Source: a virus
Taxonomy: Duplodnaviria > Heunggongvirae > Uroviricota > Caudoviricetes
Direction: 5' to 3' (one strand)
DNA: 64,000 nt
IMG/VR virus record: IMGVR_UViG_2703718772_000011
In this document: in pieces, positions 1,380 through 50,106 of the stretch
How positions within the stretch are numbered: the first letter of the stretch is position 1
How the letters are laid out: each line of letters starts with the position of its first letter
Notes under the pieces: generated by a model
What the model saw: the letters and a program-made list of their open reading frames with translations, nothing else
What the model was told of the DNA's origin: nothing
Databases searched by the model: none
Position numbers and translations under genes: made by a program

Positions 1380-1634
1380 TCATTTCGATTGATTATTTTC
1401 TCGACCATGTAGTTGAACATTCAAGGCAAACACCTCGTTAATCAACTCACCTAAAAGCTGTTCAACAAGTTCGCGATGCTCCCCAAGATGCAAGCACTTA
1501 ATTGCCCATTCGTACAAGTTGAAAGCCTGCTCGCGATCTTTCATCATTTCACGGGCCTGGGCCAGAAAATCGCTCTCTACGAGCGCAACGACATTAGTCG
1601 GGTATGACATGTTAGTTTCCTTAAAGTGATTCAT
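1380..1634 (-). CDS. hypothetical protein (84 aa)
   Basis: ORF in co-directional gene array; no recognisable motif. Confidence 0.45.
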   Translation of the reverse strand: MNHFKETNMSYPTNVVALVESDFLAQAREMMKDREQAFNLYEWAIKCLHLGEHRELVEQLLGELINEVFALNVQLHGRENNQSK

Positions 1635-1715
1635 AAAATCGATTTTAAAGCGTCTGGGAAGGGGTTCTAGTGGATTCTGTAGTGATGTTCAGGTCTGGAG
1701 TCTCTGATACAAAAC

Positions 1716-1776
1716 AGCCTGCTTCCGTATATTAATAATTAATATGTAGTTATTTATATATATACAGAAGCAGGCT
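1716..1776. repeat. 17-bp inverted repeat with AT-rich loop (agcctgcttccgtatat ... atatacagaagcaggct), copy 1 of 2
   Basis: Read directly; arms near-identical to the element at 48093..48147. Confidence 0.8.
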
Positions 1777-1797: not shown

Positions 1798-2391
1798 CTA
1801 AGCAGCCTTCTTTGATGGTCTTTTTTTCCTGATCACATTCGCAGGATCATACCCTCCCAGACTTTTCATGACGTCCAAAGGGATCTTGCTTATAGAGTGC
1901 CCAGCGTCCTGACAGAATCCTCGAAAAACAACGAGCATACTGCCACCTGGGTTGATGTTTACTTCTACCTGACCCAGATTGACGTCAGGCTCGACAAACG
2001 CTACGCGGCCACCAGACAGAATAATCGTCTCATTCGCACACTCTGTTGCACGCTCATACCACTTTGTATCTAGGGATTGAGGAATTAGCATCACTGTTGT
2101 AACTCCGCGAGCCTGCTCACGTATAGCCGCATCAATCCAGGGGGAGATTTTGGAGTAGGGGGGATTGAGGAAGGCAATTGTACCTGGCTGTCCCCATTCA
2201 GATTTCAAAGCATCACGCTCAACGCCTATGAAATTAGGCAGCTTTGCATTGTCCTTGTTGCAGGCAACGTCAACATCAAATGTCACCCCAAGATAACGTT
2301 GAATGGCAGAAAACAGCCAGTCAGGTGTTCTCCAGAGGTCACGAAGAGAGTTGTCGCGCTTTCGCTGTTTGATTTTTTCGGCTGCAATCAT
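1798..2391 (-). CDS. dam: DNA N6-adenine methyltransferase (phage Dam-like)
   Basis: FLNPPYS catalytic NPPY motif; size and layout typical of phage Dam-family MTases. Confidence 0.8.
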   Translation of the reverse strand: MIAAEKIKQRKRDNSLRDLWRTPDWLFSAIQRYLGVTFDVDVACNKDNAKLPNFIGVERDALKSEWGQPGTIAFLNPPYSKISPWIDAAIREQARGVTTVMLIPQSLDTKWYERATECANETIILSGGRVAFVEPDVNLGQVEVNINPGGSMLVVFRGFCQDAGHSISKIPLDVMKSLGGYDPANVIRKKRPSKKAA

Positions 2392-18162: not shown

Positions 18163-19218
18163 ATGAGCGAAAACGGCAATAAAAACATAGCGATCGTTGA
18201 AGCATTTTCAGAAACAGATAAAAAGACAGGCGAAGTTGTTACGTTGGTTCCTAACACTAATAACACTGTTCAGCCTGTTGCTTTGATGCGTCTGGGCCTC
18301 TTCGTTCCGACGCTGAAATCGACATCCAGAGGAAGAAAGGGGCAAATGGTCTCTATGGATGCCTCTGCTGAACTCAAACAGCTGTCTCTGGCAAAAGCCG
18401 AAGGGTACGAAGACATAAGGATCTCTGGCCTTCGGCTTGATATGGATAACGACTTTAAAACGTGGGTGGGAATAATCCACGCGTTTGCCAAACACAAGGT
18501 TGTTGGCGATACTGTCACGTTGCCGTTCGTTGAGTTTGTAAGGCTGTGTGGCATTCCGACCGCCAGGTCATCAGCGAAGTTACGCAAACGCCTGGACAGT
18601 TCGCTAAGCCGTATTGCCACAAATACCATCTCGTTCCGTAGCAAAGGCTCTGATGAGTTTTACGTAACGCATCTTGTGCAAACGGCAAAATATAGTGTCA
18701 AGCACGATACGGTCGAACTGAAAGCAGATCCCAAGATTTTCGAACTCTACCAGTTCGACAAAAAGGTTCTTCTGCAACTCCGGGCTATAAACGAACTCTC
18801 AAGAAAAGAATCCGCTCAGGCGCTTTATACTTTTATTGAAAGTTTGCCGCCTGATCCGGCACCAATATCACTAGCCCGTTTACGCGCCAGACTTAATCTG
18901 ACAAGTCGCACTATTACTCAGAATGCGACGGTAAGAAAGGCTATGGAACAGCTGCGAGAGATAGGATATCTCGATTACACGGAAGTTAAGCGCGGAAACT
19001 CGGTCTACTTCGTCATCCACTATAGGCGGCCAAAGTTACGCCAGGCACAAATATCAACAAAAATCGATAATGATGAGACGGAATATAGCCTCCCAGATGA
19101 GAATCAAGATGACATTATCGACGTTGTGCCTGACGAAAAAGAAGGCAAAATGGTCATGTTGAGTAAAGAAGAACTGGCGCTTCTCGAAGAGTTGCGCAAG
19201 GCAAAGACTCGCAAATAG
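18163..19218 (+). CDS. repA: iteron-binding replication initiator (RepA-like)
   Basis: Only plus-strand gene in this region, flanked on both sides by iteron arrays with origin-like elements upstream; P1 oriR-repA-incA-like layout. Assignment by context. Confidence 0.6.
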
Positions 19219-19219
19219 C

Positions 19220-19703
19220 CCAACCACTGTAGTTAGTAGTAAGGCTCACTATCCACTGTAGTGAGCCTTACTTATATCTGTAATTCGCTATCCACTATAG
19301 TGAGTATCGTTATCTGTTGATAACCACTGTAGGCAGTAGAATGCAAATACTGAATTAAATGTTAGTGATCACTAACACTGATGAAACAAGGGCTGCGAGG
19401 TTAGTGGTCACTGGGTATCTTGGAAAATTTACTGTCTATAGTGGTTGTTGTCGCCCTCATCTTTGAGCGTATCCACTGTGGCGAGTGGATATCCACTGAA
19501 AACAGCAAAGGCTTACTCACCATAGTGGATACCCGCTGGACATCTCACTCCAATACTCACCATAGTGGTTGTTTGATGCGAATGAAAGGCTGTCTACTCG
19601 CTACAGTGGTTAGCAGATATGTAGGAAGGTTTTGTTACTGACTACAGTGGATAATGAGCTGGATACGAATGCGGTGAGCAGACTACTCACCGCAGTGGTT
19701 GGT
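19220..19703. repeat. iteron array C: about 12 CCACTRTAG-type iterons in both orientations downstream of the rep gene
   Basis: Direct copies near 19225-19335 and inverted copies (CTAYAGTGG) near 19432-19703. Confidence 0.75.
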
Positions 19704-28884: not shown

Positions 28885-29068
28885 AGCATCGTTGGTTTGC
28901 AAGACAGACCTTATGTAAGCAGTTTTAGTAAAGCAGTCTCAGTTCAGTGTTATCTTCTGATTTCCCTTCTTCGTGAGTCTCCTCCTTAAGTGCCTAAGTA
29001 AGTCCCAATCTATACAGATCAAATTCTCGCCGCACTATGTGGCTCACAAAATTAAGAAGGTAATATCT

Positions 29069-29284
29069 ATGTCTAATAAAATGACTGGTTTAGTAAAATG
29101 GTTTAACTCTGATAAAGGCTTTGGCTTTATTTCTCCTGCTGATGGCAGTAAAGATGTTTTTGTACATTTTTCGGCAATTCAGAGTAATAATTTCCGCACT
29201 TTGGAAGAAGGCCAGCAGGTCGAATTCTCTATCGAGAATGGTGCTAAAGGCCCAGCAGCAGCAAATGTCGTTGCTCTAAGCTGA
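29069..29284 (+). CDS. cspA: cold-shock protein CspA family
   Basis: [38 protein letters not shown]..., near-identical in pattern to E. coli CspA; start at the internal Met preceded by AAGAAGG. Confidence 0.9.
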
Positions 29285-29559
29285 TTCAACGCTGATGATC
29301 CTCATTTCTACAATAACGAAGACGGTGTAAGCCTGAGTGGATAGATTTGTAGGATTGTACAAGTTGAATAAATTAGCATGGTAAGGCCATGCTAATTAAA
29401 TCGACACAACGGCCAGTTTATTCCATAAAAGTGAATTGCCCATTGTGGCGAAATGCGGGGTTGCCGCATGAATAGTCAAAGGCAGAAGCTAACTGCCGGC
29501 ATGGCAAAACAAAGTGCGTAAGAGGAGTGACTTCCTCAACAAGCGCCATAATTCTTTAT

Positions 29560-40205: not shown

Positions 40206-40282
40206 TGGTGCCGGTTAACGGGATCGAACCGCTGACATCCTGCTTACAAGGCAGACGCTCTACCAACTGAGCTAAACCGGCA
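40206..40282 (-). tRNA. tRNA-Thr (anticodon TGT)
   Basis: Acceptor tgccggt/accggca, D-arm agctcagttggtagagc, anticodon loop cttgtaa, T-loop ttcgatc, CCA encoded. Confidence 0.85.
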
Positions 40283-40285
40283 ATT

Positions 40286-40372
40286 TGGTGGGGAGTGATG
40301 GAGTCGAACCACCCGAGTCGCAATGACAGTAGATTTACAGTCTACCCCGCTGCCCCTACGGACTAACTCCCC
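40286..40372 (-). tRNA. tRNA-Tyr (anticodon GTA), long variable arm
   Basis: Acceptor ggggagt/actcccc, anticodon arm gtaga-ctgtaaa-tctac, T-loop ttcgact, CCA encoded. Confidence 0.8.
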
Positions 40373-40377
40373 TAAAT

Positions 40378-40452
40378 TGGCGATGGTGGGTGGATTCGAA
40401 CCACCGACCAGTTGGTTAACAGCCAACTGCTCTACCGCTGAGCTACACCATC
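40378..40452 (-). tRNA. tRNA-Asn (anticodon GTT)
   Basis: Acceptor gatggtg/caccatc, D-arm gctc-agcggta-gagc, anticodon arm gttgg-ctgttaa-ccaac, T-arm ggtgg-ttcgaat-ccacc, CCA encoded. Confidence 0.9.
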
Positions 40453-45850: not shown

Positions 45851-47191
45851 TTAGGTAACGTCTAAGATTCGCTCAATGAAGCGCATTTGTTCGAGGTTTT
45901 GTTTAACACGAATGCTGATCCCTCCCTGCTGGTTACGTGAACCAGCAAAGTAGAGACGAGCCTCTCCTTTCGCTTCTTCTTCTTCGGTTTTGTTGATCGT
46001 TATTACCAGGTCAGCAATACGTACTTTTTCGATGTTGTCGGCAGCGTGCATCATTGTGGCAACTTCTGACGCGCCACCTTCACGGTTTGTCTGCGATGCC
46101 GTGATCCCAGCAACGTTATGCTTGTCATAAAGAGCACGTAAATCGGTGTAGATACTACGAATGTTGGCGCGATCATCACGAAGGTCATAACTGGCACGCA
46201 TCAAATCTGCGTAGTCGACAACAACCATGTCAGGCACCATGCCGTTGGCTTTCATGCTGTTAAGCATACGGTCCAGATCTGCCGGTGACATACTTCCTGA
46301 CGGACGCTCAACCACCCACAAACTACCAATCCCCTTCGTGGCTCCCAACTCTGCCAACTTACGATGAACCTCATCGCGCCGTTCCACCAGCTTGGACATT
46401 TCTGTCTCCGACAATCTTGCATCAAAACGGTCGGATAAAATGGTGGTGTGAACCTCCAGCGAGAGATACAGAACATTGTAGCCAGCAAGCGTTGCGTTTA
46501 TGGAAAACTCACCCATTGCGGTCGATTTACCGGATTTAGCGAACCCCATGAAGAGCACCATTTCGCGCTTTGCCCAGCCTTTTTGGTACAGCAACCTATC
46601 GAGAAGAGGGAGTCCAGTTGTAATACTGTTTGGTACATACTCCTCTGAAGCCTCATATTCACGCGCTTTCAATCGCTCACTTGCGGAGGTGTAGTAGTCA
46701 TAGATTCCGGTCGCTTCGTTCGATCCAATCTGCTGAACCTTGGCCATGATTGCCATCGCCCCCTGAAAGTCGCCCTTCTCTTTCAGTTCAGCAGCCTTAA
46801 TCAGAGCATCATCAAACGCTACGCTTTTTGCGAAGGTTGATACCTGGTCAACCATGTACGAGGTATCGGACAATTTTTCTGCAAGAATGCGCTTAAACGC
46901 AGCAACAACATCGGCGAATAGTTCCTCACGGATAGTCTTATCGCGTTTCGCACGCTTAAGCATATCCAGAATCGCAGATGAAGAGGGCGCGCTCTTGTAC
47001 ATACGGTAATAGCCCGAAACCATATTAACCAATATGGCATTGGCCGCATTGGCAAATTGGCTAGGTACAACCAGATCTCCAGCACGAGTAAGAAACTCGT
47101 GATCACGACAAAAATAGGCCGTCAATCTGTTCTGAAAATCTTCATCAAACTCTTCGGACAGCCCGCGTCCTGTATGGCAAAGTTCGGTCAT
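45851..47191 (-). CDS. replicative DNA helicase (DnaB family)
   Basis: GLPLLDRLL, Walker A GFAKSGKST, DYADLM, ASQTNRE blocks. Confidence 0.8.
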   Translation of the reverse strand: MTELCHTGRGLSEEFDEDFQNRLTAYFCRDHEFLTRAGDLVVPSQFANAANAILVNMVSGYYRMYKSAPSSSAILDMLKRAKRDKTIREELFADVVAAFKRILAEKLSDTSYMVDQVSTFAKSVAFDDALIKAAELKEKGDFQGAMAIMAKVQQIGSNEATGIYDYYTSASERLKAREYEASEEYVPNSITTGLPLLDRLLYQKGWAKREMVLFMGFAKSGKSTAMGEFSINATLAGYNVLYLSLEVHTTILSDRFDARLSETEMSKLVERRDEVHRKLAELGATKGIGSLWVVERPSGSMSPADLDRMLNSMKANGMVPDMVVVDYADLMRASYDLRDDRANIRSIYTDLRALYDKHNVAGITASQTNREGGASEVATMMHAADNIEKVRIADLVITINKTEEEEAKGEARLYFAGSRNQQGGISIRVKQNLEQMRFIERILDVT

Positions 47192-47234: not shown

Positions 47235-47984
47235 TTAATTAGATAGGGGATCAATAAACCGCCGTGCTTCTTCCAGTTCTTCTGGAAAGTGGGCGGAAAT
47301 AAGGCGCTCTGGAACGATTTCCATTAGCCAGATAGCGGAGAAAATTGTGCGTATGCGCTTGCTGCGAGGGATGGTGCGCAAACGCTCCAGAATCCACTCA
47401 AAATAGCTTTCCTGAATCGGGTTGAACTGCATGTCTCCCATATGCTTAAAGCTAACAAGAGAGTCATCCAGACGGGTTGTTGCGCGTCTGGCTAATTTCT
47501 CTTCAAATATCTCAATCAGTTCTGGCTGCCACAAATGCTGTGGGCGCGGCAGCTTGTCCCACAGCCGTCGTGCAGCTGCGGAAAGAACGGTGGAGATAAA
47601 GTAGTCGTATGAGCAGCAATAGCGATCCGCAAACTGGCGTGCTTTCCATAGCGACGTTTTATTGGCAGTCGACAACTCCTGATAAGGCAGACGTTTTAAC
47701 CCGGTGGTGAACGGAGCTGTTTCAAAGTGTTCGCGACCGTGCGTCAGCATGATATTTGAGTACTGACGTTTGTATGCCTCCGTAAAAAGACAGGTGGCCA
47801 TGAGAGGATGCATGTCGCGGTAATCAAACCACTTCGTCTCGAAGAGTTCAGCCTCGTCTTTACAGCGCGACAAACCAATGTTTTCAGCGACCCACTTGTC
47901 CATAACAGCGGTATTCCACTCTGTCATGAAGTCGTACTGGTCGTTGTCGATGGTATCGAAAAAGATTTGGCTCATGTGGCTCAC
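47235..47984 (-). CDS. hypothetical protein (249 aa)
   Basis: ORF upstream of the helicase gene. Confidence 0.5.
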   Translation of the reverse strand: MSHMSQIFFDTIDNDQYDFMTEWNTAVMDKWVAENIGLSRCKDEAELFETKWFDYRDMHPLMATCLFTEAYKRQYSNIMLTHGREHFETAPFTTGLKRLPYQELSTANKTSLWKARQFADRYCCSYDYFISTVLSAAARRLWDKLPRPQHLWQPELIEIFEEKLARRATTRLDDSLVSFKHMGDMQFNPIQESYFEWILERLRTIPRSKRIRTIFSAIWLMEIVPERLISAHFPEELEEARRFIDPLSN

Positions 47985-48092
47985 CTGGTAGGTAGTTACT
48001 TACTTATCACAATGAGCGGATGATAGCGACTGGTGGCAGTTTTTGGAAGTGGAAACGGAAGGGAGTTGTTCTGGTGGTGTCTTTTTAAAAGA

Positions 48093-48147
48093 CCTGCTTC
48101 TGTATATATTTAATAAGTTACTTATTATTTATATATACAGAAGCAGG
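48093..48147. repeat. 17-bp perfect inverted repeat (cctgcttctgtatatat / atatatacagaagcagg) with 21-nt AT-rich loop, copy 2 of 2
   Basis: Arms match the element at 1716..1776; loop contains AATAAGTTACTTATT. Confidence 0.8.
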
Positions 48148-48258
48148 CATAACTTGTCGTCTTAGACGCCCAGAAGCTCTACACTTTGAGCCTGTTAAAT
48201 TGATTAAAAACTTATGTGTAAAATAGAACGCATTAGTCAGTAGCTAAGAGATGCAATA

Positions 48259-49026
48259 ATGGACGATTTATCGGTATACGCGAGATCATTGGATAAGGCT
48301 AAATACTATGTTTACTGTCTCTATGATACAGAAGACAAGATGAAAAGACCGTTTTACATAGGAAAAGGCAAATCGACTCGTTGTCTCGATCACATCAAGT
48401 ATCCCGATGACTCTCCCAAATCCATGCGGATCAAAGAACTTTTGGCTAATAAAAAATTAGGCATAGATATACTTCGTCATGGTATGGATGAAACCACAGC
48501 CAAACTTGTTGAGGCGACATGCATCGACCTTATGGGGGTCGGAGAGCTTACGAATAAGGTACGAGGAAGTGGTTCCATGATGGGCAGAATATCACTGGAC
48601 GCCTACCATCACTTAGTGCTGCAAGAGGAAACTGAAATTGCTCCTGAGCACGCCGGTCTTGCCTTCCTGCTAAACAGCACCTACAAGTCAGGAATGTCCG
48701 CTCTGGCATTATATGAAGCTACGCGTGGCGTATGGGCAAAGGTTCCAAGAGACGAGAATCTCAAATATGCCTACGCTACATATGGTGGGCTGATAATGGA
48801 AGTTTATCAGATTGAATGCTGGGTCAAAGCCGGTTCTCAGCAGTACTTTACAAGGGATATAGCTCTTGGCCCCGACACAAAACGTTATGAATTTGTTGGC
48901 AGAATAGCCGATGAGCATATTAGAAAACTGTATGTAGGCAAATTAATCAAGAAGCCACCAAGCTACGGTAGCCCTTTTGTGAAGGTTGGGGTGGTTAGGA
49001 CTGAACATAGTGTTAGCGCGGCATAA
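48259..49026 (+). CDS. GIY-YIG nuclease domain protein
   Basis: N-terminal YYVYCLYDTEDKMKRPFYIGKGKSTRCLDH fits the GIY-(x10-11)-YIG...R...H pattern. Confidence 0.6.
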   Translation: MDDLSVYARSLDKAKYYVYCLYDTEDKMKRPFYIGKGKSTRCLDHIKYPDDSPKSMRIKELLANKKLGIDILRHGMDETTAKLVEATCIDLMGVGELTNKVRGSGSMMGRISLDAYHHLVLQEETEIAPEHAGLAFLLNSTYKSGMSALALYEATRGVWAKVPRDENLKYAYATYGGLIMEVYQIECWVKAGSQQYFTRDIALGPDTKRYEFVGRIADEHIRKLYVGKLIKKPPSYGSPFVKVGVVRTEHSVSAA

Positions 49027-49078
49027 AGCTGACACTGTAGTTATGCATTGGCGCAATGTACGCGCCAATGCATGATTT

Positions 49079-49438
49079 TTAACCTTTCTTCATCAACTCT
49101 CGTTTGATTTCATCGGTACGCATCGTGACATCGGCAGCGGTGATCGCCTCATTCAATTTCACGATGTCCTCGATTTCCTGCGGTGACTTCTCTGCCAGAT
49201 GGAAAATGGCTGCTCGAATCACGTCAGAACGAGTGAACTTCTCGAAGCGAGGGATGAACTTCATCATCTCCAGCAGTTCGAAGTATTCGTCCTCCAGTGA
49301 CATTGTGCGGCTTTTAATTTTCTCTTTGCCACGAGTCGGGCGTCCCTGTGGTCTGACTGGTTGGCGCAAAGGAGTTGTGTTCTTAGCCGGTGCATCAGGC
49401 TCTTTGCGCTTTGCTAGGTCACCCATTTTCATGGACAT
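49079..49438 (-). CDS. putative partition adaptor / centromere-binding protein (ParG/ParB-like)
   Basis: Small basic protein immediately downstream of parA; assignment by context only. Confidence 0.4.
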   Translation of the reverse strand: MSMKMGDLAKRKEPDAPAKNTTPLRQPVRPQGRPTRGKEKIKSRTMSLEDEYFELLEMMKFIPRFEKFTRSDVIRAAIFHLAEKSPQEIEDIVKLNEAITAADVTMRTDEIKRELMKKG

Positions 49439-50106
49439 TATTCTTCTTCCTCCAGACTCAACAGATAATCTACAAATTCTTCAAACTCGGCTTCCGCCTT
49501 CTTGTCGCGTTCGCTACCGGTCATTTCAAAGATAGAACGACCTGACTCTTCCGCATCATCGTAGACGTTGCGGTTATATAGATTGACTGGCGCAGACTCG
49601 ATGCCGAACGTCTCGACAATCTCTTTAGCCGCCAGAATGCGAGACACTTGTGATGGCAAAGCCGGGCACTGGTTCATGACCGCGCGGACCTTCACTTTAT
49701 CGTTTACATTGCGAACATTGTCGATAATAGGATCGATGTCACGTAAAGATTTCAAATCACGACGCTTAGGACGCAGCGGGATAATGATAACGTCAGCCAT
49801 CAGCATCGCTTGTCGCTGAATTTCGGAGTCGAAGCCACCAGCATCTACCACTACAAACTCAGCTCTACCCTGAAGCGATTTTAGGTGCTTAATGATGTCA
49901 TCCTGAACGTATGCAAAAGGAATCAGCTCAAGGTCTTCGTTCTGTCGACGGTCTTCACACCAGCTCGTTGTCGTGCGCTGAATATCTATATCGGTAATAT
50001 AAACCTTCTTCTTCTTTTTGACTTTCAGGCAAACGGCAATTTGCTGGGCAACGGTGGATTTGCCAGGCCCGCCCTTTGTGCCGCCAACCACAAAGATCTT
50101 GGTCAT
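49438..50106 (-). CDS. parA: ParA/ParF-type partition ATPase
   Basis: Deviant Walker A GGTKGGPGKST; 222 aa small ParA. Confidence 0.85.
   Translation of the reverse strand: MTKIFVVGGTKGGPGKSTVAQQIAVCLKVKKKKKVYITDIDIQRTTTSWCEDRRQNEDLELIPFAYVQDDIIKHLKSLQGRAEFVVVDAGGFDSEIQRQAMLMADVIIIPLRPKRRDLKSLRDIDPIIDNVRNVNDKVKVRAVMNQCPALPSQVSRILAAKEIVETFGIESAPVNLYNRNVYDDAEESGRSIFEMTGSERDKKAEAEFEEFVDYLLSLEEEE

What the first reader, a model, noticed from the sequence alone, without database searches (positions are those of the whole stretch)
48093..48147. Two near-identical 17-bp inverted-repeat elements 46 kb apart (1716..1776 and 48093..48147)
Both have arms CCTGCTTC(C/T)GTATATAT / ATATATACAGAAGCAGG around an AT-rich loop of 21-27 nt; the second loop itself contains AATAAGTTACTTATT. 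One sits between two co-directional genes, the other in a divergent region in front of the GIY-YIG gene, so neither is a simple terminator. Candidates: protein-binding sites (partition, packaging or regulator), recombination hot spots, or small mobile palindromes.
Basis: seen in the sequence. Interest (0 to 1): 0.5.

Follow-up and report, generated by a model that had tools for sequence, protein, structure and literature searches.

The report
Triplicated conserved terminator hairpin in phage-plasmid
The two look-alike palindromes are two of three copies of a conserved hairpin that SSU5-type phage-plasmids keep at operon boundaries, where it most likely stops transcription from running into the next gene module; this is ordinary in kind but unusually well conserved in sequence.

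Summary
The arms CCTGCTTCYGTATA(TAT)/(ATA)TATACRGAAGCAGG occur at 1718-1774 and 48093-48147, four arm matches against 0.11 expected.

The window is an SSU5-like phage-plasmid. A third copy lies outside the window, upstream of terS. At least 120 related contigs carry the element, always at the same three syntenic gaps. In complete E. coli genomes it is essentially confined to these plasmids, so it is not mobile.

Nearly all genes are on the - strand. Each copy starts 3-25 nt after an upstream stop codon in the co-directional contexts. The divergent context of copy 2 here comes from a GIY-YIG gene sitting in a variable cargo slot.

The - strand RNA folds better than the + strand, and the one variable arm position is usually a G.U pair on that strand. 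A U-rich tail follows copy 2 clearly, copy 1 moderately and copy 3 poorly.

Published RNA-seq of the near-identical Cyrano shows transcript levels collapsing across copy 2. Distant relatives keep the par and replication genes but let the palindromes decay and gain new canonical terminators at the same places.

Best reading: intrinsic terminator or 3'-end hairpins insulating modules. The near-invariant arm sequence remains unexplained and could reflect a sequence-specific factor.

The parts
1718..1774 (-). Copy 1 (class 1) of the palindromic hairpin. Arms are CCTGCTTCCGTATA / TATACAGAAGCAGG around an A/T-only interior. On the - strand RNA, arm position 9 is a U.G pair.
   Evidence: The - strand fold is -32.9 kcal/mol (z -5.6) against -29.2 for the + strand. 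Orthologous copies occur at the same position in 30 related loci.
1706..1717 (-). U-rich tail of copy 1 on the - strand (CUGUUUUGUAUC).
   Evidence: Sequence. The class-1 tail score averages -2.98 and every lineage is at or below -2.5; background mean is -2.13.
1692..1698 (.). Outer motif GGTCTGG of copy 1. Its inverted partner CCAGAAC is at 1788-1794, 3 nt from the dam stop codon at 1798-1800.
1798..2391 (-). Dam-type adenine methyltransferase gene, the gene whose transcript runs into copy 1.
   Evidence: Pfam PF05869, E 2.5e-38. Annotated as such in Cyrano and SSU5.
1380..1610 (-). Small gene (phrog_5343, about 77 aa) downstream of copy 1. The likely start is the ATG at 1610-1608, preceded by AAGGAAAC, about 108 nt after the hairpin.
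   Evidence: sequence.
48093..48147 (-). Copy 2 (class 2), with perfect 17-bp arms. On the - strand it forms an 18-bp stem topped by a 7-bp inner stem (AAUAAGU/ACUUAUU).
   Evidence: The - strand fold is -31.5 kcal/mol (z -8.8) against -28.8 for the + strand. The orthologous copy in Cyrano sits in the gap where RNA-seq signal collapses.
48078..48092 (-). U-rich tail of copy 2 on the - strand (UCUUUUAAAAAGACA).
   Evidence: Every class-2 lineage has a U-rich tail; mean tail score is -3.87 and all are at or below -2.5.
48068..48074 (.). Outer motif GTTCTGG of copy 2. Its inverted partner CCCAGAAG is at 48169-48176.
47987..48007 (-). Operator- or promoter-like palindromic motif ATAAGTAAGTAactACCTAC, between copy 2 and the start of the replication operon. 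This gives the order terminator, then regulatory region, then gene.
47235..47975 (-). First gene of the replication module (phrog_2500), followed by the DnaB-like helicase (45851-47191) and the primase gene. This is the module that copy 2 insulates.
48259..49026 (+). GIY-YIG nuclease gene occupying the variable cargo slot between the par operon and copy 2. Its presence makes the context look divergent in this window.
   Evidence: Pfam PF22945. The gene is absent in relatives where the palindrome abuts window position ~49080, or is replaced by other cargo.
49079..50106 (-). parA (49438-50106, type Ib-like) plus a 119-aa partner (49079-49438, phrog_5111, weak ribbon-helix-helix signal). This is the ancestral upstream operon of copy 2.

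Best explanation
The palindromes are two of three copies of a conserved punctuation hairpin in the - strand transcripts of SSU5-type phage-plasmids.

Host RNA polymerase transcribing an upstream unit reaches the element a few nucleotides after the stop codon. The upstream units are dam (copy 1), parA-CBP plus cargo (copy 2), and the ABC-ATPase-like / 88-aa wHTH genes (copy 3). The RNA then folds into a long hairpin: a G+C-rich base (CCUGCUUC/GAAGCAGG), an A/U upper stem and a small inner stem, followed by a U-rich tract.

The transcript ends there, by intrinsic termination and/or formation of a stable 3' end. The next module then depends on its own promoter and operator region, which lies in the ~110-145 nt before its start codon. 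These modules are the small gene plus RNase H, the replication genes phrog_2500-dnaB-primase, and terS-terL plus the structural genes.

In the lysogen this insulates silent lytic modules from plasmid-maintenance and cargo genes that are expressed.

What is shown: the anatomy, synteny, strand bias and U-tails, the transcript drop across copy 2 in a near-identical relative, and replacement by other terminators in distant relatives.

What is inferred: that the hairpin itself causes the drop, that copies 1 and 3 act in the same way (copy 3 probably weakly, together with a second hairpin just before terS), and that the three copies stay alike through selection plus occasional gene conversion.
For: 1. 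Identity and copy number. The window is an SSU5-like phage-plasmid, 97-99% identical to CMS-2020a, PhiR41_1 and Cyrano over the two regions compared. There are three copies per genome. Among 5,426 complete E. coli genomes, 260 carry the element, with a median of 6 strand-wise places. I read that as three palindromes each matched on both strands. 1,430 places are on plasmids and 4 on chromosomes.

2. Synteny. All 120 palindromes retrieved from viral contigs map to the same three gaps.

3. Position. The element, counted from its outer motif, begins 3-5 nt after the stop codon of dam and of the 88-aa gene. The palindrome core lies about 20 nt after the stop of SSU5_037 in SSU5 and 25 nt after the stop of CYRAN_30 in Cyrano.

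4. Strand bias. The - strand RNA is more stable than the + strand for all three copies: -31.5 vs -28.8, -32.9 vs -29.2 and -37.3 vs -29.0 kcal/mol. At arm position 9, the pair is G.U on the - strand in 78 of 120 copies and a C.A mismatch on the - strand in only 2. The diverged class-3 hairpin of K. oxytoca has three G.U pairs on the gene strand; that intergenic region folds at -43.7 against -24.5 kcal/mol on the other strand.

5. U-tails on the gene strand. Class 2 is always U-rich (mean score -3.87) and class 1 is moderate (-2.98); background is -2.13.

6. Expression. In LF82/Cyrano RNA-seq (PMC9928086, S1 Table), the LB overnight averages are parA 49.8, CYRAN_29 89.1 and CYRAN_30 54.6, then CYRAN_31 6.2. 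Log2 values fall from 10.42 to 2.56 in another condition. The palindrome plus UCUUUUAAAG is the only strong hairpin in that 193-nt gap.

7. Functional replacement. The K. oxytoca and K. michiganensis relatives keep ParA (75% identity), the CBP (52%), phrog_2500 (54%), DnaB (69%) and Dam (71%). Their class-1 palindrome is reduced to one arm followed by a new canonical terminator. Their class-2 palindrome is degenerate, with a new terminator beside it. Their class-3 copy is a diverged hairpin followed by a U5-U8 tract.
Against: 1. The U-tract of copy 3 is poor in the close relatives (CUUCGUAAG, UUCUGAAUAC). The mean tail score is -2.75 and only 43% of lineages reach -2.5. A second, covarying hairpin with GUGUUUUAG lies just before terS and may be the real terminator there.

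2. The simple terminator scan did not report the palindromes, because their loops exceed its 3-8 nt limit.

3. The arms are almost invariant across lineages whose flanks are only 50-80% conserved. The arm changes that do occur are one-sided and uncompensated, whereas the neighbouring terS-leader hairpin shows compensatory changes. That pattern suggests sequence-specific recognition as well as folding.

4. The spacer sequences between the arms and the outer motifs do not covary (permutation p = 0.59).

5. The RNA-seq gives steady-state levels in a lysogen and no 3'-end mapping. It is uninformative for copy 1 and shows only a 2-6-fold drop across the copy 3 gap.

6. In this window no - strand gene ends directly at copy 2.
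Confidence: 0.68

Rival explanations
1. The hairpin is more than a passive terminator. It is a sequence-specifically recognised RNA control element. A phage-encoded or host factor would read the conserved arms to allow read-through or processing in the lytic cycle. One version resembles lambda tI/sib retroregulation: terminated transcripts keep the core hairpin, while read-through transcripts add the outer GGUCUGGG/CCCAGACC pairing and become RNase III substrates. This partly overlaps the best explanation.
For: 1. Arm sequence is nearly invariant and changes are uncompensated, while a neighbouring hairpin covaries.

2. The same arms occur at three module boundaries.

3. A conserved outer inverted motif lies beyond the U-tract and could pair only in read-through RNA.

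4. The stems reach 18 + 7 bp, long enough for RNase III by established knowledge of that enzyme.

5. K. oxytoca copies share derived 3'-arm changes (GAGCCAGG instead of GAAGCAGG), which hints at co-variation among copies within a genome.
Against: 1. No candidate factor was identified.

2. Neither the outer stem nor the spacers show compensatory change.

3. Gene conversion between copies could explain their similarity. E. coli copies 2 and 3 have identical interiors, 27/27.

4. There is no experimental evidence for processing or antitermination in this phage group (literature searches found nothing).
Confidence: 0.2
2. The palindromes are double-stranded DNA binding sites. One possibility is dispersed centromere sites for the type Ib ParA and its small ribbon-helix-helix partner, as with the four scattered sopC-like palindromes of phage-plasmid N15 (recalled from my own knowledge). 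Another is operators of a global regulator.
For: 1. The arms are palindromic with an A/T centre, and sequence rather than pairing is conserved.

2. In some relatives copy 2 lies immediately downstream of the par operon.

3. The three copies are spread roughly evenly around the circle, at about 28.8, 61.5 and 91.6 kb of 107.6 kb.

4. phrog_5111 gives a weak ribbon-helix-helix-type hit.
Against: 1. K. oxytoca and K. michiganensis relatives keep ParA and its partner but their palindromes are decayed or halved.

2. pMT of Y. pestis keeps a perfect class-3 copy without this ParA or its partner.

3. Arm-to-arm spacing varies between 51 and 57 bp through TA slippage, which is awkward for a rigid dimer.

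4. The strand-biased G.U pattern and the U-tails have no explanation on double-stranded DNA.

5. Two other scattered palindromic motifs look like better operator candidates.
Confidence: 0.08
3. The copy upstream of terS is the packaging (cos/pac) cut site, or the copies are lytic replication origins with an A/T-rich unwinding centre flanked by inverted protein boxes.
For: 1. The linear SSU5 record opens inside the class-3 palindrome, about 133 nt upstream of terS, which is the classical position of cos.

2. Copy 2 lies next to the replication genes.

3. The centre is A/T-rich between G+C clamps.
Against: 1. Three near-identical copies are incompatible with a unique packaging site.

2. The Cyrano record is the re-annotated plasmid pLF82, which was compared with SSU5, so its start is probably not independent.

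3. An assembler break at a strong hairpin or at a 55-bp repeat explains the SSU5 ends, and many draft contigs end near all three classes.

4. The palindromes decay in relatives that keep both the replication and the packaging genes.

5. The plasmid origin is expected beside the initiator-like + strand ORF at 18163-19218, whose counterpart in relatives is annotated RepA/RepB. Inverted repeats lie at 19231-19700.
Confidence: 0.03
4. The palindromes are small mobile elements (MITE- or REP-like) or active recombination sites.
For: 1. The sequence is repeated and has terminal inverted symmetry.

2. Copy 2 borders a hypervariable cargo slot.

3. One relative has a dam 3'-end fragment plus an arm copied to the class-2 position.
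Against: 1. All copies lie at three syntenic positions.

2. Only 4 of 1,434 places in complete E. coli genomes are chromosomal, all in one record.

3. No target-site duplications are seen in the flanks.

4. No associated transposase or recombinase was found.
Confidence: 0.01

Closest known systems
Intrinsic (Rho-independent) terminators at operon boundaries of phages and plasmids
   Same: A G+C-rich stem base followed by a U-rich tract on the coding strand. Placement is just after a stop codon and ahead of the next promoter or operator. Transcript level collapses across copy 2 in Cyrano.
   Different: The hairpin is unusually long (18 + 7 bp, about 55 nt). It is present as three near-identical copies per genome. 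The arm sequence is almost invariant across genera. Copy 3 lacks a good U-tract.
Lambda tI/sib dual terminator and RNase III retroregulation site; T7 intercistronic RNase III sites
   Same: Long intercistronic hairpins in polycistronic phage transcripts. Extra complementary sequence lies outside the terminator and could pair only after read-through. Several similar copies occur per genome, as in T7.
   Different: No cleavage data exist. The outer stem shows no covariation. The resemblance rests on recalled knowledge of those systems, not on a test.
Dispersed centromere palindromes of phage-plasmid N15 (sopC-like inverted repeats)
   Same: Several identical palindromes are scattered around a phage-plasmid genome that encodes a ParA-type partition system.
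   Different: The N15 sites are short (~16 bp) SopB boxes of a type Ia system. Here the arms are 14-17 bp and are separated by 21-27 bp. The elements are strand-biased and carry U-tails. Their presence does not track the par genes.
REP/BIME and ERIC-type intergenic repeats of enterobacterial chromosomes
   Same: Repeated imperfect palindromes lie in transcribed intergenic gaps and can act as mRNA 3'-end stabilisers or terminators.
   Different: Those families are chromosomal and have hundreds of copies at non-syntenic sites. This element has exactly three syntenic copies and is confined to one phage-plasmid family.

Membership tests
Intrinsic (Rho-independent) terminator | A stable G+C-based stem-loop forms in the RNA of the transcribed strand. 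| tested here: met
   - strand folds are -31.5, -32.9 and -37.3 kcal/mol with z-scores of -5.6 to -9.0, and each is better than the + strand.
Intrinsic (Rho-independent) terminator | A U-rich tract lies immediately 3' of the stem. | tested here: inconclusive
   Class 2 meets it (UCUUUUAAAAAG / UCUUUUUCUAU, mean score -3.87). Class 1 is moderate (CUGUUUUGUAU, -2.98). Class 3 is weak in close relatives (-2.75, 43% pass) but has U5-U8 in distant relatives.
Intrinsic (Rho-independent) terminator | It lies downstream of a co-directional gene, at the end of a transcription unit. | tested here: met
   The outer motif starts 3-5 nt after the stop codon for copies 1 and 3. The palindrome core starts about 20-25 nt after the stop codon at copy 2 in SSU5 and Cyrano. 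In this window copy 2 is separated from the par operon by a + strand GIY-YIG insertion.
Intrinsic (Rho-independent) terminator | Transcript abundance falls across the site, or 3' ends map to the U-tract. | tested here: inconclusive
   For copy 2, Cyrano RNA-seq falls from 54.6 to 6.2, and from log2 10.4 to 2.6. The drop across the copy 3 gap is 2-6-fold. Copy 1 is uninformative. No 3'-end mapping is available.
Plasmid centromere (dispersed parS/sopC-like, or type Ib parC) | Presence tracks the cognate ParA and centromere-binding protein. | tested here: not met
   K. oxytoca keeps ParA (75% identity) and its partner (52%), but its palindromes are decayed. pMT keeps a perfect class-3 copy without either gene.
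Plasmid centromere (dispersed parS/sopC-like, or type Ib parC) | The site is bound by the centromere-binding protein and confers ParA-dependent stability. | not testable with these tools
   This needs EMSA or ChIP and plasmid stability assays.
MITE/REP-like mobile palindrome | Copies lie at non-syntenic positions with presence/absence polymorphism and target-site duplications. | tested here: not met
   120 of 120 copies lie at three syntenic positions. 1,430 of 1,434 places in E. coli genomes are on plasmids. No duplicated flanks were seen.
RNase III processing site (T7 R-sites, lambda sib) | About two turns of double-stranded RNA in an intercistronic hairpin. | tested here: met
   An 18-bp perfect stem is continued by a 7-bp inner stem.
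RNase III processing site (T7 R-sites, lambda sib) | rnc-dependent cleavage in vivo or in vitro. | not testable with these tools
   No end-mapping data are available.
cos/pac packaging site | A single site per genome near terS, with virion DNA ends mapping to it. | tested here: inconclusive
   Three copies argue against it. The SSU5 linear record does open inside the class-3 copy, but that may be an assembly break.
Rfam-described RNA family | A match at or above a family's gathering score. | tested here: not met
   No hit was found at the palindromes. Only sub-threshold, generic miRNA-precursor-like hairpin matches appeared.

The most novel reading that the evidence does not exclude
The triplicated hairpin is a sequence-specifically recognised switch. 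Its near-invariant arms and outer CCCAGAC-type motifs would be read by a phage-encoded or host factor. That factor could act by antitermination, by sib-like RNase III retroregulation, or through a DNA-bound roadblock. The result would be that the three lytic modules (an early small-gene/RNase H unit, the replication genes, and the packaging and structural genes) are insulated from plasmid-maintenance transcription in the lysogen and opened together on induction.
Probability: 0.2. Interest if true: 0.55.

Novelty: new member of a known kind. Interest (0 to 1): 0.3.

Why it matters
SSU5-type phage-plasmids are common in clinical Enterobacteriaceae and carry resistance and toxin-antitoxin cargo. 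About 5% of complete E. coli genomes in the collection searched carry this element.

The element marks where plasmid-mode transcription is walled off from lytic modules. It also marks the downstream edge of the main cargo slot. That helps annotation, the engineering of these replicons, and understanding of how cargo is expressed without triggering lytic genes.

The 55-bp triple repeat is also a practical cause of assembly breaks in this family.

If the arms turn out to be read by a specific factor, the element would be a simple handle on the lysogeny-to-lysis transcription programme of a poorly studied phage group.

Tried and rejected
A 15-mer exact scan of viral contigs returned mostly single chance hits. 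It was replaced by the two-arm gapped pattern.

2. Covariation of the spacers between the arms and the outer motifs was tested by duplex energy of a lineage's own flanks against cross-lineage flanks. There was no signal: own -4.2, cross -4.3 kcal/mol, p = 0.59.

3. The G.U versus A.C strand-asymmetry count over all arm positions gave 35 against 5 distinct sequences, but only 5 against 3 event types. The bias is dominated by position 9, so I treat it as suggestive only.

4. Rfam gave nothing at the elements, at gathering thresholds or at permissive E-values.

5. The sigma-70 promoter scan found no promoter in the copy 2 gap. The only hit overlapping copy 1 is a weak + strand match; the other two hits in that scan lie downstream of it. 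An idea that the loop holds a T4-late-like TATAAATA promoter was not pursued, because no matching factor is known.

6. A LexA-box resemblance (CTGTATATAT...ATATATACAG) was rejected. The two halves are about 35 bp apart instead of forming one 16-bp box.

7. A centromere array upstream of parA was sought by repeat search and none was found.

8. PDB sequence searches for the 119-aa ParA partner and the 88-aa protein gave nothing significant.

9. Literature searches found no description of the element. One preprint could not be opened.

10. Concerted evolution was examined. It is clear only for E. coli copies 2 and 3, whose interiors are 27/27 identical. It is not clear in SSU5.

Full report
**Observation.**
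Both sites exist as described. Copy 2 has perfect 17-nt arms at 48093-48109 and 48131-48147, 21 nt apart, and its loop contains AATAAGTTACTTATT. Copy 1 has the exact right arm at 1758-1774. Its left arm at 1718-1734 differs at 3 of 17 positions. Read as a longer imperfect palindrome it spans 1716-1776 with 27-nt arms, 85% complementary. The 17-mer with up to 3 mismatches gives 4 matches against 0.11 expected, and no shuffle reached 4.

**What the window is.**
It is an SSU5-like phage-plasmid. Over the two regions compared it is 98.6-99.4% identical to Escherichia phage CMS-2020a (CP053388.1) and 97-98% identical to PhiR41_1 and Cyrano. It is about 78-84% identical to Salmonella phage SSU5 and 76-80% to Klebsiella relatives. 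Almost all genes lie on the - strand.

**A third copy and the family picture.**
The part of the closest genome that lies outside the window holds a third copy (L004 18527-18581). It sits between an 88-aa winged-helix-like gene and terS. The three copies therefore lie at about 28.8, 61.5 and 91.6 kb of the 107.6-kb circle.

Flank mapping placed every one of the 120 palindromes at one of three syntenic gaps:
- Class 1: dam, then the palindrome, then a small gene and RNase H.
- Class 2: parA, its partner and cargo, then the palindrome, then phrog_2500, dnaB and primase.
- Class 3: the 88-aa gene, then the palindrome, then terS and terL.

Among 5,426 complete E. coli genomes, 260 carry the element. 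The median is 6 strand-wise places per genome, which I read as three palindromes each matched on both strands. Of the places, 1,430 are on plasmids and 4 on a single chromosome. The element is thus a fixed feature of this replicon family and not a mobile palindrome.

**Context.**
At class 1 and class 3 the element, counted from its outer motif, starts 3-5 nt after the upstream stop codon. At class 2 the upstream flank is hypervariable. It holds a GIY-YIG gene on the + strand here, DUF2971 and other genes in SSU5, and a 267-aa hypothetical gene (CYRAN_30) following parA and CYRAN_29 in Cyrano. In some relatives nothing lies between the ParA-partner gene and the palindrome. In SSU5 and Cyrano the upstream gene is co-directional and ends about 20 nt and 25 nt before the palindrome.

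Downstream of each copy there are roughly 110-145 nt before the next start codon. At class 2 this stretch contains a conserved palindromic motif, ATAAGTAAGTAactACCTAC, of a type found upstream of many genes. At class 3 it contains two AAACAAGTTGTTT-type boxes and a second hairpin just before the terS ribosome-binding site.

**Strand and structure.**
All three copies fold better as - strand RNA than as + strand RNA: -31.5 vs -28.8, -32.9 vs -29.2 and -37.3 vs -29.0 kcal/mol. All z-scores are at or below -5.4.

The only commonly variable arm position is position 9. It is a G.U pair on the - strand in 78 of 120 copies, a Watson-Crick pair in 40, and a - strand C.A mismatch in 2. A count over all arm positions gives 35 against 5 distinct sequences, but only 5 against 3 independent event types, so this evidence is suggestive rather than decisive.

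The - strand tail after the stem was scored with a TransTermHP-style U-tail score:
- Class 2 is U-rich in every lineage (UCUUUUUCUAU, UCUUUUAAAAG), mean score -3.87.
- Class 1 is moderately U-rich (CUGUUUUGUAU), mean -2.98.
- Class 3 is weak in close relatives, mean -2.75.
- The background mean is -2.13.

**Expression evidence.**
Cyrano is the plasmid pLF82 of E. coli LF82. Its per-gene RNA-seq values are given in S1 Table of PMC9928086. In LB overnight culture the averages are parA 49.8, CYRAN_29 89.1 and CYRAN_30 54.6. After the 193-nt gap that holds the class-2 palindrome, CYRAN_31 (phrog_2500) is at 6.2. In another condition the log2(FPKM+5) values fall from 10.42 to 2.56. Allowing for the pseudocount, that is a drop of roughly three orders of magnitude.

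The palindrome followed by UCUUUUAAAG is the only strong hairpin in that gap. Both flanks of class 1 are silent in the lysogen, so it is uninformative. The drop across the class-3 gap is 2-6-fold where the upstream gene is expressed.

**Distant relatives.**
Two plasmids were examined whose TerS is 59-65% identical: K. oxytoca NZ_CP138770.1 and K. michiganensis NZ_CP056140.1. The K. oxytoca plasmid still encodes ParA (75%), its partner (52%), phrog_2500 (54%), DnaB (69%) and Dam (71%). Their palindromes have decayed:
- Class 1 retains only a 3' arm and is followed by a new canonical terminator (AGAGATTCAGGCAC...GTGCCTTAATCTCT + CUUUUGU).
- Class 2 is a degenerate remnant with a new terminator beside it.
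- Class 3 is a diverged hairpin that pairs only on the gene strand through three G.U pairs and is followed by a U5-U8 tract.

The function preserved at these positions is therefore termination. Neither the par genes nor the replication genes need the palindrome. Conversely, pMT of Y. pestis keeps a perfect class-3 copy although it lacks this ParA, its partner, phrog_2500 and DnaB.

**What stays unexplained.**
In an unbiased sample anchored on TerS, the arms are almost invariant, while the adjacent flanks are only 50-70% conserved.

The few arm changes are one-sided and uncompensated: position 6 T to G or A, position 8 G to A, and position 5 C to T. The terS-leader hairpin in the same genomes does show compensatory changes.

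A relative whose neighbouring protein is only 65% identical still has the arms with one mismatch.

An outer inverted motif, G(G/T)TCTGGG ... CCCAGA(A/C)C, is conserved roughly 10-20 nt outside the arms at all three classes. The spacers between it and the arms do not covary.

E. coli copies 2 and 3 have identical interiors (27/27), while their orthologues differ. This points to at least one gene conversion between copies.

Together these features allow, but do not prove, recognition of the sequence by a factor. The candidates are antitermination, sib-like RNase III processing of read-through transcripts, or a DNA-binding protein.

**Other rivals.**
A plasmid origin at the palindromes is unlikely. 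The initiator-like + strand ORF at 18163-19218, with inverted repeats at 19231-19700, is the expected place. Its counterpart is annotated RepA or RepB in relatives.

The linear SSU5 record opens inside the class-3 palindrome, and so does the Cyrano record, with a 1-nt offset. Cyrano is a re-annotated plasmid that was compared with SSU5. In addition, draft contigs break near all three classes. I therefore regard an assembly artefact as more likely than a physical terminus, but this remains open.

No Rfam family matches the element, and no paper describing it was found.

**Verdict.**
The finding is a genuine, family-conserved, triplicated hairpin. Its best-supported role is transcription termination or 3'-end formation on the - strand, insulating successive modules of the phage-plasmid. 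It is a new member of a known kind. Its unusual sequence constancy deserves a simple experimental check.

Noticed in passing
window 2403(+), 16633(+), 20442(-), 22386(+), 27181(-), 41201(+), 43692(-), 47997(-), 52746(-), 56851(-), 63771(-): There is an over-represented ~20-bp palindromic motif, ATA(A/G)GTAAGTA-NNN-TAC(C/T)TAT. It gives 12 hits against 0.74 expected. Most hits lie 0-50 nt upstream of a start codon on the same strand. It looks like a scattered operator or a phage-specific promoter element, comparable to the dispersed C1 operators of P1.
   Followed up: partly
window 9513, 21244, 36747, 47211, 50142; L004 18451, 18476, 29489, 32607, 32658, 45472, 46201 and others: A second scattered palindromic motif, AAACAAnTTGTTT, is over-represented. 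Strand-wise matches number 11 against 3.2 expected in the window and 25 against 2.8 in the rest of the genome. One site lies just upstream of parA and two lie in the terS leader.
   Followed up: partly
L004 ~18415-18450 (outside the window; CP053388.1 ~61.4 kb): A hairpin AGAGCGCATGGACGCGCTCT followed by GTGTGTTTTAG lies immediately before the terS ribosome-binding site. It shows compensatory changes among relatives (gcgc/gcgc to gcac/gtgc). It is a probable leader terminator or attenuator of the late operon.
   Followed up: partly
window 48148-49078: This is a hypervariable cargo slot between the ParA-partner gene and palindrome copy 2. At least nine different flanks start right at the palindrome edge in relatives. 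It holds a GIY-YIG gene here, DUF2971 and other genes in SSU5, and the hypothetical gene CYRAN_30 in Cyrano.
   Followed up: partly
NC_018843.1 ends (L301 1-20, L302 3960-4000); OV696614.1 ends (L303, L304): The linear SSU5 record starts and ends inside the class-3 palindrome (...GACTTATTA | AATATATACGGAAGCAGG...). Cyrano's record does the same with a 1-nt offset. This could be a physical terminus, a copied convention or an assembler break.
   Followed up: partly
L299 31560-31720 vs L299 4070-4130 (K. michiganensis NZ_CP056140.1): A ~55-nt fragment comprising the 3' end of dam plus a palindrome 3' arm is duplicated at the class-2 position. This indicates a past recombination between copies.
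   Followed up: no
window 28891-29309 (+): There is a full-length Rfam cspA thermoregulator match (187.6 bits, E 7e-50) upstream of a cold-shock-type ORF carried by the phage-plasmid.
   Followed up: no
window 40209-40452 (-): Three tandem tRNA genes match Rfam RF00005 at 75.5, 70.6 and 39.7 bits.
   Followed up: no
window 18163-19218 (+) and 19231-19700: This is the only long + strand ORF in that stretch of the window, about 1.1 kb like the genes annotated RepB- or RepA-type initiator in relatives (not compared directly). It is followed by several inverted repeats (19231-19279, 19286-19309, 19469-19532, 19665-19699). This is the likely plasmid replication origin region.
   Followed up: no
window 1634-1647: A perfect 14-bp palindrome, TAAAATCGATTTTA, lies between copy 1 and the likely start (1610) of the downstream small gene.
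   Followed up: no
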